From the IMG/VR virus record IMGVR_UViG_2547132127_000004: a stretch of 23,278 bases of DNA. One strand, given 5' to 3'. The stretch is from a virus. Its lineage: Duplodnaviria > Heunggongvirae > Uroviricota > Caudoviricetes. Below are positions 20,501 through 23,278 of the stretch, piece after piece (within the stretch, counting starts at the first letter, position 1; the number at the start of each line of letters is the position of its first letter). The position numbers were made by a program.

Positions 20501-23278
20501 ACAGGGCTTTACCTGTCAGCTCTTTTGTCATGCGCTCTCCCATGGCGTAGCCGACAATTTCACACGTATAAACATCTTTGATGCCAGCGAGGTACAACCA
20601 TCCCTCCTGTGTGGCAACATACGTCAGGTCCGCCACCCAGACCTGATTTGGTGCTGTAGGAGCGAACGTCTGGTTCAGCAGATTTGGCGCAACTGGCAGA
20701 TTGTGGTTCGGGTTCGTAGTCGCTCTGAACTTGCGTTTCTGCTTACAGCGTAGCCTCAGCTCCTTACGAAGACATGCCAGTCGGTCACGACCAACGATGA
20801 TGCCATTCTCTGCCAGCTCCGTCTGGAGCCGCCGGGTTCCATATGTTTCGCGAGTGCGGATATGTGCCACCTTAATCTCCAGTTTTAGCCGCTCATCACT
20901 TTGTTTTCTGTCTGAGGGTTCATGCTGTACCCAGTTGTAATAACCGCTCCTGGATACACCAAATACCTGACACATCGCTTCAATGGGAAATTGTTGTCGC
21001 CATTGTTCGATTAACGCGTATTTTTCAGCGACTCCTGTGCAAAATACGCTGTTGCTTTTTTTAATATATCGCGCTCAAGGCGAGCTTCATTTAACGCCTT
21101 ACGCAGTTGCAGAATTTCAGATTCCAGTTCAGCCACCGTGCGGGAACCAGGAGTACCGAGCCCTTTTCTGGCGGCGGTAACCCATTGTCCTAAAGTGCCT
21201 TCAGGAAGAGATAATCGGGAAGCGCCTTCACTGATCGAAAGTTGATTTTCAAGAACCGTTCTGACAGCTTCGGCTTTGAACTCTTTAGAGTAACGTTGGG
21301 TTTTTCTGCTCATTATTAGCTCCTTCTGATGCCATTCTATTTCAGGAAGGAGTGTCCGTTAAACTCAGGCTACCTCAGTCATCGGGGATGCAGCTGCAAA
21401 ATTTTTTGCAACTGATACCTATATCAACGGAACAGGTGGTGTTGTGGAGAGGGATATTTGCAATTTTCCCAAGCGTGAAGCTTGCCTCATGGCAATGAGC
21501 TACAGCTATGAGCTTCAGGCGCAGGTGTATGACCACATGACGGAGCTTGAGGGCGGGAAGGACATTAACCTCCTCGATTTCTCTGGCCTGACCGATATGG
21601 CAATCAGCGAAATGCAAAACCGTGTCGCGGCTGCTGAGAAGTTCTCATTTGAAATGCACGGTCAAGCAGGTAGCGCTCTCATGACTCGTCGGAAGAAAGA
21701 GAAGAAGGCCATTAAAAAGGCTGAGCAGCTTGTGAAGGATCTGATTCAGTTCAAGCTATGTGACATGGGGGATTTCCCTGATGGTAAACCAGCATGACTC
21801 CGATTGATTTCATACATAAAAATGTAACAACCGAGTTAATAAAGCTTGGGTACGACCAGAACGCGGCTATGACTGGCGCTGACATGGCGGTGGAGCATTA
21901 CCGCCGTTGTTCACAAGCCAGCAGAAAAGGCCGAGTTTTCGATGACTGCCTGTACATTGCAAAACAGTGGGCAGGTAGGAAGAAAAGGGAAAAAATGACA
22001 ACCTGAGAGCTACTTTCACAACGGCTCTTCATTACAAAGCCCATCTACTGGTGGGCTTGATAATGGCTTATACCCTACACGGGATAACTTAACTGATATC
22101 CCTTTTAACGGATAAAGGTATTCAGGCCTGACACATCATGCGCTGTATCGTCGCTGTATTCCCGCATTAACCATGACCGTAGCCCGACGGGGAACTCCTT
22201 CTGCGCGAGTGTGCGGGAATAATCAAAAACGATGCACACCGGGTTTTTACCGCGTTTATGGTTCGCGGGTTTGTCCCTCATGCTCGCCAGTCCTGTGCGG
22301 GGGTGGAAGAAACAGGACACTTACACTGATTCTTGTGGGTACGATGCTATTCCTTTCTGGATTATCCCGATGTCATTCATGCAGGGCGCTGTATCAGACG
22401 TTCGTCATGGCTGTCAGGCTGACGGGTCCTCCCGGTGGGGTGGCCTGCCACGGGGCGGGAGCGGCGCAGAATTTCACTATTTATGAAAATTTTTCGGAAA
22501 CCATGTCCGGTTTCTCTGAAGGTTAACCATTTGAAAAATATAGAAATGCGCTTTCTGCGAACCGGGCATGCGCAAAAATTGAACACTCAAACCGGACATA
22601 TATGCCGCGTTTCATAAAGTTGTTCGCAAGATGCATGTTTAAAACGCATGAGGGGAGATTTTTTGGCGAGGTGAACAGTGGCTACTCAGACTGAAGTTGC
22701 CAGGCATTTGAGTCTGACCGATCGCCAGCTTCGCAGATTACAGAAACTGCCGGGTGCCCCGGTTTCGAACAAGCGAGGACAACTGGATCTGGATGCCTGG
22801 CGTGATTTTTACATATCGTATCTGAGAAGAAGTAAAAACGATGTGCCTGATGGTGATCCGGAAGAGGATTATGAAGAGAAACTGAGGTAGCCTGAGTGTA
22901 ACGGACACTCCTTCCTGAAATAGAATGGCATCAGAAGGAGCTAATAATGAGCAGAAAAACCCAACGTTACTCTAAAGAGTTCAAAGCCGAAGCTGTCAGA
23001 ACGGTTCTTGAAAATCAACTTTCGATCAGTGAAGGCGCTTCCCGATTATCTCTTCCTGAAGGCACTGAACCGCCCCGGGTTTCCTGGAGAGTGTTTTATC
23101 TGTGAACTCAGGCTGCCAGATCATCGTTTCCGATGGAAGCATAATAAGCTTTTTCTGCTTCTGCCGGAGGGATGTGGCCCAGCCTTTCCAGCAATCGTCG
23201 ATTATTATACCAGTCCACCCACGTGAGTGTGGCCAGTTCCACTTCTGCACGGTTTTTCCAGCTCTTACGGTGTATTAC

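What the first reader, a model, noticed from the sequence alone, without database searches (positions are those of the whole stretch)
22380..22890. Lambda-like cos site followed by a small-terminase gene cut by an IS
The cos-like sequence places the packaging site between the lysis genes and Nu1, as in lambda, but the predicted cohesive end (GGGCGGGAGCGG) differs from the lambda sequence I recall (GGGCGGCGACCT). The Nu1-like gene is truncated after 68 codons by IS copy C, so the prophage cannot package itself. An intact cos could still allow packaging by a helper phage with matching terminase specificity.
Basis: partly seen in the sequence, partly recalled or inferred. Interest (0 to 1): 0.45.

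Follow-up and report, generated by a model that had tools for sequence, protein, structure and literature searches.

The report
Lambda-type cos, IS-split small terminase gene
This is the DNA-packaging site (cos) of a decayed lambda-like prophage of Shigella flexneri, followed by a small-terminase gene that an insertion sequence has split in two; it is a real but ordinary feature of IS-riddled Shigella prophages.

Summary
Window 22423-22603 is a lambda-type cos. It has cosQ GGGTCCT, a cosN core with inferred 12-nt end GGGCGGGAGCGG (22453-22464), an I2-like box, and three R repeats with an IHF-like site between R3 and R2. It lies between the lysis genes and a Nu1-family terS.

IS600 cuts terS at 22883, after 68 complete native codons. 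That IS600 itself carries a nested IS3-family element.

Related genomes add three points:
1. The source is Shigella flexneri. There the IS pair is a simple 2.6-kb insertion with a 3-bp AAC duplication. The rest of terS, an intact gpA-type terL and the head genes follow just beyond the window end.
2. The cohesive end differs from lambda at bp 7, 8, 9, 11 and 12. All five lie in the right half, which the literature describes as naturally variable. The same 12 nt occur in phage mEp460.
3. The cos is a mosaic. cosQ and cosN are mEp460-type, while cosB and terS are PhiR12_1-type.

Self-packaging is very probably lost. Packaging by a helper phage is plausible but untested, and is limited by a truncated integrase. 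Verdict: a new member of a known kind, of low interest.

The parts
22424..22430 (+). cosQ (GGGTCCT), the packaging-termination element. It lies within the box that the phage 21 record annotates as R4 (window 22423-22434).
   Evidence: Same offset (-30..-19) and sequence as in lambda, 21, PhiR12_1, Gifsy-1 and mEp460. Its role is taken from PMC4669245 and PMC9026076.
22451..22466 (.). cosN: CG | GGGCGGGAGCGG | CG. The inferred staggered nicks fall before 22453 (top strand) and after 22464 (bottom strand), giving a 12-nt 5' overhang at 22453-22464.
   Evidence: Ungapped alignment to lambda and 21 termini. The Tritos record OV696610 ends ...CCACG and starts GGGCGGGAGCGT. 8 of 16 positions show two-fold symmetry, against 10 of 16 in lambda. 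Cleavage itself is not shown.
22482..22496 (+). I2-like box TATGAAAATTTTTCG, at the position of the I2 IHF site annotated in phage 21.
   Evidence: 14/15 identical to phage 21 I2 (+30..+44) as annotated in M81255.
22502..22517 (+). R3, the presumed principal TerS binding site (CATGTCCGGTTTCTCT), at +50..+65.
   Evidence: Same offset as R3 of phage 21 (+50..+65) and identical to PhiR12_1. It is the exact core hit.
22524..22536 (-). I1 candidate IHF site (TTTCAAATGGTTA on the minus strand) between R3 and R2.
   Evidence: 12/13 match to WATCAANNNNTTR, at the offset of phage 21 I1 (+72..+86). The consensus match alone is not above chance.
22560..22570 (-). R2 (CATGCCCGGTT on the minus strand), inverted relative to R3. 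It carries a lineage-specific substitution, G at 22566.
   Evidence: Every relative with an intact terS has A at 22566, as do 5 of the 8 S. flexneri loci compared; G occurs only in the window, L016, L017 and L019.
22590..22612 (.). R1 region. It holds a strong inverted copy AAACCGGACAT (22590-22600, minus-strand core) that overlaps a weak copy in the orientation of R3 (imperfect palindrome).
   Evidence: The orientation differs from the R1 annotated in phage 21, so the assignment is ambiguous.
22608..22645 (+). Roughly 40-bp segment shared with mEp460/569R4-type phages and absent from PhiR12_1. It is the second mosaic patch.
   Evidence: Alignment. Many E. coli genomes match only query positions 156-193.
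22678..22890 (+). 5' fragment of terS (GTG start, GAGG ribosome-binding site at 22668-22671). It encodes the 69-residue N-terminal DNA-binding domain plus one IS-encoded residue. Native sequence ends at 22882.
   Evidence: PHROG 57 and 7289. Residues 1-69 are identical to the intact 169-aa TerS. The AF2 model shows helix-turn-helix, a wing-like loop, then a helix.
22880..22882 (.). AAC target-site duplication of IS600 copy C. The second copy lies beyond the window, after the IS.
   Evidence: Junctions in L016 compared with the uninterrupted CFSAN029787 sequence.
22883..23065 (+). Left 183 bp of IS600 copy C, including the start of orfA (22947-).
   Evidence: Alignment to intact IS600 copies of the window and of L016. 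RefSeq annotation names it an IS3-like element of the IS600 family.
23066..23278 (-). End of a 1309-bp IS3-family element nested inside IS600 copy C. It runs off the window. I judge it IS629-like from memory of its terminal sequence.
   Evidence: L016 10390-11698 lies between the two IS600 parts. RefSeq annotates it as an IS3 family transposase plus AL1L pseudoknot.
20114..21377 (-). IS600 copy B, a simple insertion (GTC target duplication) between the lysis genes and cos.

Best explanation
This is the packaging locus of a defective lambda-like prophage of Shigella flexneri.

How it worked in the ancestral phage (inferred by homology with lambda and 21):
1. A dimer of the Nu1-type small terminase bound R3 and R2, brought together across an IHF-bent I1 site.
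2. This positioned the gpA-family large terminase to nick cosN 12 bp apart, leaving 5' ends GGGCGGGAGCGG.
3. DNA was then pumped into proheads rightwards (towards terS, terL and the head genes) until the next cosQ-cosN.

What is shown about the present state:
- IS600, later hit by a second IS, inserted into codon 69 of terS. It separates the DNA-binding domain from the domain that assembles with and recruits TerL.
- The element therefore very probably cannot make terminase holoenzyme.
- The cos DNA is nearly intact: two substitutions relative to copies that have an intact packaging module, one of them in R2.

What remains inference: the cos could still serve as a substrate for a phage whose TerS has the same specificity (PhiR12_1 type).

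Origin of the cos: it is a natural recombinant. Its cosQ-cosN half is of the mEp460 type, and its cosB-terS half is of the PhiR12_1 type.
For: - cos anatomy and ungapped alignment to lambda, 21, Gifsy-1, PhiR12_1 and mEp460.
- R-repeat clustering.
- TerS family: PHROG 57 for the fragment. Pfam Phage_Nu1 for the intact homologue and for the downstream 107-aa remnant. 28-33% identity to lambda Nu1, 21 gp1, N15 gp1 and Gifsy-1.
- Source and simple insertion: the exact 70-aa product occurs in S. flexneri genomes. The composite IS is 2577 bp with an AAC duplication, and the reconstructed TerS is identical to CFSAN029787 at 169 of 170 aligned positions (168 of 169 residues, plus the stop).
- Downstream genes: terL (642 aa, GpA_ATPase + GpA_nuclease), gpW, portal (frameshifted), protease, D, E and FI.
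- Mosaic: -31..+12 is 43/43 identical to mEp460; +45..+165 is 89/120 to PhiR12_1 against 31/116 to mEp460.
- Ten loci carrying the intact TerS all have the same cosN, and nine of them differ from the window's cos region at only 2-3 positions; L031 shows 27 ungapped differences and one extra base between cosN and terS.
- TerL of CFSAN029787 is 93% identical to TerL of PhiR12_1, which has lambda's cosN.
- The literature reports that lambda TerL tolerates right-half cosN changes and that bp 7-12 vary naturally (PMC4669245).
Against: - No cleavage or packaging data exist for this cos. Nick positions are inferred by homology and from the deposited termini of Tritos.
- No isolated phage in the INPHARED collection carries the hybrid cos, so its competence is unproven.
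- R1 orientation does not match the arrangement in 21 and lambda.
- The fold search for the N-terminal domain gave only weak matches, E >= 0.26.
- The window itself ends inside the nested IS. The continuation is inferred from near-identical S. flexneri genomes (1 mismatch in 1879 nt), not from the window.
Confidence: 0.9

Rival explanations
1. The cos is a dead relic. The mEp460-type cosN joined to a PhiR12_1-type cosB and terminase is a non-functional recombinant formed in a prophage, so no helper phage could use it.
For: The hybrid junction covers at least 80% of the query in only 10 of 5426 complete E. coli genomes. It is absent from 50,697 phage records and from GTDB species representatives. 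In this lineage R2 carries a substitution.
Against: The exact intact TerS that goes with this cos is indexed on hundreds of contigs. In several loci it sits next to a full-length terL and head genes. Some genomes hold two or three copies, which suggests the ancestor spread as a phage. Right-half cosN changes are tolerated by lambda TerL (PMC4669245). 13 IMG/VR prophage-like contigs carry the junction.
Confidence: 0.25
2. The locus is a PICI-type hijacker cos: cosQ-cosN followed by an rpp-like gene that redirects a helper phage's TerS, rather than a phage terS.
For: As in PICIs, cosQ and cosN resemble those of helper phages, and a short wHTH-type ORF follows. The weak structural hits include 6hn7_B from the Rpp-TerS work.
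Against: PICI cos sites are described as lacking R repeats (PMC9026076), whereas three are present here. The intact gene has a Phage_Nu1 C-terminal domain and overlaps a gpA-type terL, followed by portal, protease and capsid genes.
Confidence: 0.02
3. The retained 69-residue TerS DNA-binding domain is expressed and acts as a cosB-binding decoy. It would interfere with packaging by incoming phages of the same specificity, making it a domesticated fragment.
For: The cut falls almost exactly at the boundary between the N-terminal domain and the Phage_Nu1 part. The start codon and ribosome-binding site are intact. The same truncated product is conserved in many S. flexneri genomes.
Against: Conservation is explained by clonal descent. 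There is no sign of selection. A substitution has accumulated in R2. The other lesions (portal frameshift, int truncation, three IS600 copies) point to plain decay. No expression data exist.
Confidence: 0.04

Closest known systems
Bacteriophage lambda cos (cosQ-cosN-cosB) with Nu1/A terminase
   Same: The layout is the same: lysis genes, cosQ (GGGTCCT at -29..-23), a 12-bp cosN with GGGCGG left half and CG flanks, an I2 region (28/33 identical at +13..+45), R3-I1-R2-R1, then terS overlapping a gpA-family terL.
   Different: The cohesive end differs at bp 7, 8, 9, 11 and 12. The R sequences are unrelated to lambda's (30/120 at +45..+165, the chance level). The TerS N-terminal domain is not detectably similar by BLAST or Pfam.
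Phage 21 cos (annotated in M81255)
   Same: The subsite offsets are the same: R4/cosQ, I2, R3 at +50..+65, I1 at +72..+86, R2 at about +107. The R core is related: 21 has CATGTCGG, this site has CATGTCCGG.
   Different: Phage 21 has lambda's cohesive end. The R core here has one extra C. TerS is only 30% identical, and BLAST similarity is confined to the C-terminal part. So the packaging specificity is probably distinct.
Escherichia phage PhiR12_1 (PV340549) packaging region
   Same: This is the closest isolated-phage match for cosB and terS. R3 is identical, TerS is 93.5% identical and TerL 93% identical.
   Different: PhiR12_1 has lambda's cosQ flank and cosN (GGGCGGCGACCT). It lacks the roughly 40-bp segment at 22608-22645.
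mEp460 / vB_EcoS-569R4 / Tritos cos region
   Same: The cosQ-cosN half is identical: 43/43 over -31..+12 for mEp460. The cohesive end is GGGCGGGAGCGG in mEp460 and GGGCGGGAGCGT in 569R4 and Tritos. Tritos is deposited with its ends at this site.
   Different: Their cosB is unrelated. Their TerS belongs to DUF1441/PHROG 141, and their TerL (700 aa) is only 24% identical.
Gifsy-1 and N15 cohesive-end variants (Feiss et al. 2015, PMC4669245; Vahanian et al. 2017)
   Same: [quoted passage not shown] Gifsy-1 (GGGCGGCAGCGT) shares the changes at bp 8, 9 and 11.
   Different: This site has two further changes, at bp 7 and bp 12. I found no paper in the searchable library that quotes this 12-mer in a phage context.

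Membership tests
lambda-like cos site (12-nt 5' cohesive ends) | cosN with a conserved left half (GGGCGG) and CG dinucleotides flanking both nick positions | tested here: met
   CG|GGGCGGGAGCGG|CG at 22451-22466. All differences from lambda fall in bp 7-12. The criterion comes from PMC4669245.
lambda-like cos site (12-nt 5' cohesive ends) | Conserved 7-bp cosQ about 17 bp upstream of cosN | tested here: met
   GGGTCCT at 22424-22430, at the same offset as in lambda, 21, Gifsy-1, PhiR12_1 and mEp460.
lambda-like cos site (12-nt 5' cohesive ends) | [quoted passage not shown] | tested here: inconclusive
   R3 (+50..+65), an I1 candidate (+72..+84) and an inverted R2 (+108..+118) fit. The best R1 copy has the orientation of R2, not of R3, and overlaps a weak copy in the other orientation.
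lambda-like cos site (12-nt 5' cohesive ends) | Position between the lysis cassette and terS-terL (gpA family) | tested here: met
   Lysozyme and Rz-like ORFs lie upstream. terS follows at 22678. A gpA-type terL follows in L016 and in the intact relatives.
lambda-like cos site (12-nt 5' cohesive ends) | Terminase actually nicks here to give 12-nt 5' overhangs | not testable with these tools
   The support is only indirect: the Tritos record is deposited with ends at the homologous position.
Nu1-type small terminase (Pfam PF07471, PHROG 57) | N-terminal winged helix-turn-helix DNA-binding domain | tested here: inconclusive
   The fragment hits PHROG 57 at E=1.5e-11. The AF2 model (pLDDT 72) has helices at 4-10, 15-22 and 38-54 with a loop between. 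Foldseek hits to MerR-like wHTH domains and small-terminase DNA-binding domains are weak, E >= 0.26. Pfam and PDB sequence searches found nothing.
Nu1-type small terminase (Pfam PF07471, PHROG 57) | C-terminal Phage_Nu1 region (self-assembly and TerL binding) | tested here: not met
   It is absent from the ORF in the window, because the gene is cut at codon 69. It is present in the intact homologue (PF07471, E=4.8e-18) and in the 107-aa remnant after the IS pair in S. flexneri. The gene is therefore a member; the product encoded in the window is only its first domain.
PICI cos-rpp module | cosQ/cosN without R repeats, followed by rpp and no terL or head genes | tested here: not met
   Three R repeats are present. 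A Nu1 C-terminal domain, terL and head genes lie downstream.
IS600 (IS3 family) | About 1.26-kb element with orfA/orfB and a 3-bp target duplication | tested here: met
   Copies A and B are 1264 bp, with 100-aa and 272-aa ORFs. TSD is GTC for copy B and AAC for copy C. RefSeq names it IS600 family.

The most novel reading that the evidence does not exclude
The IS cut left exactly the DNA-binding domain of TerS under its own start signals. If expressed, this 69-residue domain could occupy cosB sites of incoming phages with the same packaging specificity and block their packaging. It would then be an accidental, prophage-derived anti-phage decoy. A milder reading concerns the hybrid cos. It may show that one cohesive-end type is served in nature by two terminases only 24% identical. 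Cohesive-end sequence and packaging specificity would then be freely reassorted by crossovers between cosN and I2.
Probability: 0.04. Interest if true: 0.5.

Novelty: new member of a known kind. Interest (0 to 1): 0.15.

Why it matters
It matters little beyond annotation.
- It identifies a 70-aa Shigella ORF, named 'hypothetical protein' or 'protein convertase' in public records, as the 5' third of terS.
- It marks the cos of one of the lambdoid prophage remnants of S. flexneri.
- It gives a clean natural example of a cos assembled from two modules (cosQ-cosN of one phage group, cosB-terS of another). This fits, and slightly extends, the published picture that the right half of cosN is free to vary while cosB and TerS set specificity.
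- If a phage of matching specificity infects Shigella, the site could start packaging of the adjacent chromosome. That is speculative.

Tried and rejected
- Pfam on the 70-aa fragment gave only a sub-threshold Sigma70_r3 hit.
- A PDB sequence search with the intact TerS gave nothing meaningful.
- Foldseek on the AF2 model gave no hit with E < 0.26, so the winged-helix assignment rests on PHROG 57 and the family alignment.
- BLAST in 'distant' mode did not pick up lambda itself. The relation to lambda cos had to be shown by an anchored ungapped comparison.
- A literature search for the 12-mer returned only G-quadruplex and i-motif papers and other unrelated hits.
- Vahanian et al. 2017, the survey of cosN variation, is not held.
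- A degenerate pattern for the hybrid junction found nothing in GTDB species representatives.
- Promoter and terminator scans and Rfam found nothing in the cos region.
It worked through the cluster id, but only 24 of 547 index blocks were read. Whether an S. flexneri genome also holds an intact copy stays open.
- The chance-resemblance and PICI readings were rejected (see rivals).
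Full report
**1. What is in the sequence**

The region 22380-22890 was read directly and its ORFs listed. At 22420-22500 the sequence reads ...GACGGGTCCTCCCGGTGGGGTGGCCTGCCACG GGGCGGGAGCGG CGCAGAATTTCACTATTTATGAAAATTTTTCGG.

I fetched the ends of lambda and the curated phage 21 cos record M81255. I also fetched Gifsy-1, N15, PhiR12_1, mEp460, vB_EcoS-569R4, Tritos and mEp460_4F5. All align without gaps when anchored on ACG|GGGCGG.

A 76-nt lambda probe (-31..+45) matches the window at 22422 with 51/76 identities. The best match anywhere else, on either strand, is 35/76. 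The resemblance is therefore unique in the window and not a chance match.

**2. Anatomy**

Offsets are counted from base 1 of the cohesive end (22453).

| Element | Window position | Offset | Note |
|---|---|---|---|
| cosQ GGGTCCT | 22424-22430 | -29..-23 | Inside the box annotated R4 in phage 21 |
| cosN CG\|GGGCGGGAGCGG\|CG | 22451-22466 | -2..+14 | Cohesive end 22453-22464 |
| I2-like TATGAAAATTTTTCG | 22482-22496 | +30..+44 | 14/15 identical to phage 21 I2 |
| R3 CATGTCCGGTTTCTCT | 22502-22517 | +50..+65 | Exactly the phage 21 R3 offset |
| I1 candidate (IHF) | 22524-22536 (-) | +72..+84 | 12/13 to consensus; phage 21 I1 is +72..+86 |
| R2 | 22560-22570 (-) | +108..+118 | Inverted relative to R3 |
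| R1 region | 22590-22612 | +138..+160 | Orientation ambiguous |

- The R core CATGTCCGGTT has its only hits with at most 1 mismatch in the whole 23-kb window at these three places. My arithmetic gives about 0.4 such hits expected in the window.
- The best R1 copy is oriented like R2. It overlaps a weaker copy in the R3 orientation, so R1 cannot be assigned cleanly.
- The IHF consensus match is not significant on its own (15 hits, 21 expected). Only its position supports it.

**3. The cohesive end**

GGGCGGGAGCGG differs from lambda's GGGCGGCGACCT at bp 7, 8, 9, 11 and 12.

Feiss et al. (PMC4669245) make four relevant statements:
- Differences in bp 7-12 are common among lambda-like phages. 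N15 differs at bp 9 and 12, and Gifsy-1 at bp 8, 9 and 11.
- The CG pairs flanking the nicks are conserved, and so is cosQ.
- Lambda TerL efficiently nicks cosN variants changed in the right half.

My own extraction confirms Gifsy-1 as GGGCGGCAGCGT.

The window's 12-mer is identical to that of phage mEp460. It is one base from that of 569R4 and Tritos (GGGCGGGAGCGT). The Tritos record is deposited with its ends exactly at the predicted nicks.

The left half of this cos (cosQ plus this cosN) occurs in 963 of 5426 complete E. coli genomes. The 'odd' cohesive end is thus an ordinary, widespread type. I found no paper in the searchable library that quotes it in a phage context. The survey by Vahanian et al. 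2017 is not held.

**4. The cos is a mosaic**

| Segment | Identity to mEp460 | Identity to PhiR12_1 |
|---|---|---|
| -31..+12 | 43/43 | 23/43 (cosQ flank 16/31, cosN 7/12) |
| +12..+45 | 18/33 | 30/33 |
| +45..+165 | 31/116 (chance level) | 89/120 |

- A segment of about 40 bp just before terS (22608-22645) is again mEp460-type and is missing from PhiR12_1.
- mEp460-type phages pair this cosN with a DUF1441/PHROG 141 TerS. Their 700-aa TerL is only 24% identical to the TerL associated here.
- PhiR12_1 pairs the cosB and TerS seen here with lambda's cosN. Its TerL is 93% identical to the TerL of the intact relative in CFSAN029787.
- The PhiR12_1-type cosB is common in E. coli.
- The hybrid junction covers at least 80% of the query in only 10 complete E. 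coli genomes. It is in 13 IMG/VR prophage-type contigs, in no INPHARED phage record and in no GTDB species representative.

**5. The gene**

ORF 22678-22890 has a GTG start and a GAGG ribosome-binding site 6 nt upstream.

- It matches PHROG 57 (terminase small subunit, E=1.5e-11) and PHROG 7289. Pfam finds nothing in the fragment.
- Uninterrupted copies that are 99.7% identical over 22100-22883 exist in E. coli CFSAN029787 and in an O121 strain.
- In those copies terS encodes 169 aa. Its C-terminal part is Pfam Phage_Nu1 (E=4.8e-18).
- In CFSAN029787 the gene overlaps a 642-aa gpA-type terL, followed by W, portal, S49 protease, decoration and capsid genes. In the O121 strain terL is itself cut short by IS1.
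- The intact protein is 28-33% identical to lambda Nu1, 21 gp1, N15 gp1 and the Gifsy-1 TerS. BLAST-level similarity is confined to residues 64-167. The N-terminal DNA-binding domain is therefore a distinct type.
- Some family members carry a different, N15-like N-terminal domain (it resembles N15 gp1 by my comparison) on the same C-terminal domain. Such domain exchange is what one expects for specificity swapping.
- An AlphaFold model of residues 1-69 (pLDDT 72) shows helix-turn-helix, a long loop and a third helix. Foldseek returns only weak hits (E >= 0.26) to MerR-like winged-helix domains, including small-terminase DNA-binding domains. This is consistent with the assignment but not decisive.

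**6. The IS and what lies beyond the window**

IS600 copy C starts at 22883. Native terS ends at 22882, which is 68 codons plus 1 nt. At 23066 the IS600 is itself interrupted by the end of another IS3-family element, which runs off the window.

An exact look-up of the 70-aa product found it in many Shigella flexneri genomes. Public records name it 'hypothetical protein [Shigella]' and 'protein convertase [Shigella flexneri]'. Locus L016 (CP000266.1) differs from the last 1879 nt of the window by one base.

In L016:
- The composite IS600::IS3-family insertion is 2577 bp and is flanked by an AAC duplication.
- terS then resumes. With the insertion removed, TerS is identical to the CFSAN029787 protein at 169 of 170 aligned positions, which is 168 of 169 residues plus the stop.
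- After it come an intact 642-aa terL, gpW, a frameshifted portal gene (the frame changes near residue 325-331), protease, D, E and FI.

The gene is therefore split, not lost.

**7. State of the prophage**

- IS600 copy B (20114-21377) is a simple insertion (GTC duplication) between Rz and cos.
- IS600 copy A (5828-7091) has no duplication (GAT on one side, GTC on the other). It removes the 5' end of the integrase gene, and no xis or repressor region lies between int and a primase-helicase gene. This indicates an IS-mediated rearrangement.
- With terS split and the portal frameshifted, the element is defective for excision and for packaging.
- The cos itself differs at only two positions (22549 and 22566) from the copy in CFSAN029787, which has an intact packaging module. 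The change at 22566 lies in R2. It is confined to a sub-lineage, namely the window, L016, L017 and, allowing for its one-base indel, L019.

**8. How it most likely works**

Shown: the sequence architecture, the family of the gene, the insertion, and the mosaic origin.

Inferred from lambda and phage 21 biology (PMC4669245, PMC9026076):
1. TerS dimers bind R3 and R2 across an IHF bend.
2. They place TerL to nick cosN.
3. Packaging runs rightwards.
4. cosQ and cosN terminate it.

Inferred for this element: there is no holoenzyme because the TerS DNA-binding domain is separated from its assembly domain. A PhiR12_1-type phage (identical R3, 66 of 69 N-terminal residues identical) could plausibly recognise this cosB.

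Because excision looks impaired, such a helper would mostly start packaging from the unexcised site into the IS pair, the head and tail genes and the chromosome beyond. From my own knowledge of lambda 'doc' particles, this yields few mature transducing particles unless a second cos lies at the right distance.

**9. Comparison and verdict**

It works like, and by the sequence criteria is a member of, the lambda-like cos family with a complex cosB. One defining feature is unresolved (R1 orientation) and one is untestable here (cleavage).

It is not a PICI cos, for two reasons. R repeats are present, and the Nu1 C-terminal domain, terL and head genes are present.

The finding is correct but ordinary: an IS-disrupted packaging module in a Shigella prophage remnant. 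The only mildly interesting point is the natural cosQ-cosN / cosB-terS chimera.

Noticed in passing
window 7303-10209 (+): A 968-aa ORF with Toprim_2 and AAA_25 (primase-helicase type) domains. It is interrupted by Hint and LAGLIDADG homing-endonuclease domains, so it looks like an intein-containing replication protein in the prophage.
   Followed up: no
window 11887-12075 (+): Rfam hits to isrK (58 bits) and C4 antisense RNA (80 bits). They lie inside or next to an Ash-family ORF (11353-12183) and upstream of a Rha-family ORF. This suggests a P1/P7-type antisense immunity module within a lambdoid remnant.
   Followed up: no
window 17217-17527 (+): Four tRNA genes (CAT anticodon, Arg-TCT, Thr-TGT, Gly-TCC) lie between the Q antiterminator and the holin. 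RefSeq calls the CAT one tRNA-Ile in the related O121 prophage.
   Followed up: partly
window 4428-7091: This is the left prophage junction. A glycerol-3-P antiterminator-family gene is truncated (121 aa; profile positions 1-108 of 173). IHF-consensus hits cluster at 4841-4898. The integrase gene loses its 5' end to IS600 copy A, which has no target duplication (GAT/GTC). No xis or repressor region follows.
   Followed up: partly
window 22566 (R2 of cosB): G here, but A in every relative with an intact terS and in most S. flexneri copies. G is shared only with L016, L017 and, after correcting for its one-base indel, L019. It is a recent substitution in a presumed TerS binding site.
   Followed up: yes
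L016 15174-16767 (S. flexneri, downstream of the window): The portal gene is split by a frameshift near residue 325-331 (tblastn frames 3 then 1). Gene calls give a 351-aa first part and a 137-aa or 161-aa second part.
   Followed up: partly
L016 12782-15202 compared with L006: Downstream of the IS insertion, the S. flexneri prophage is only 96.9% identical to the CFSAN029787 prophage. Upstream it is 99.7% identical. This suggests another mosaic boundary at or near terS.
   Followed up: no
proteins P0052, P0073, P0085, P0086 (alignment A1): These TerS homologues have the same C-terminal domain but a different, N15-like N-terminal DNA-binding domain (the resemblance to N15 gp1 is my reading of the alignments). 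They are natural domain swaps that would change packaging specificity.
   Followed up: no
public records of the 70-aa product (P0112): The terS 5' fragment is annotated 'protein convertase' or 'hypothetical protein' in S. flexneri records. This is a misannotation that the present analysis corrects.
   Followed up: yes
L033 and L045 (IMGVR_UViG_2562617057_000009, 50,378 bp): Two exact copies of the hybrid cosN-I2 junction lie on the same strand of one 50-kb prophage-type contig. They could be tandem or neighbouring related prophages, which in principle could allow cos-to-cos packaging.
   Followed up: no
window 22232-22486 (+) and 22105-22320 (-): Two small ORFs overlap the cosQ/cosN flank. They are annotated as hypothetical proteins, and once as 'putative late gene regulator', in mEp460-type phages and in E. 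coli. They have no family hits and are probably not genes.
   Followed up: partly
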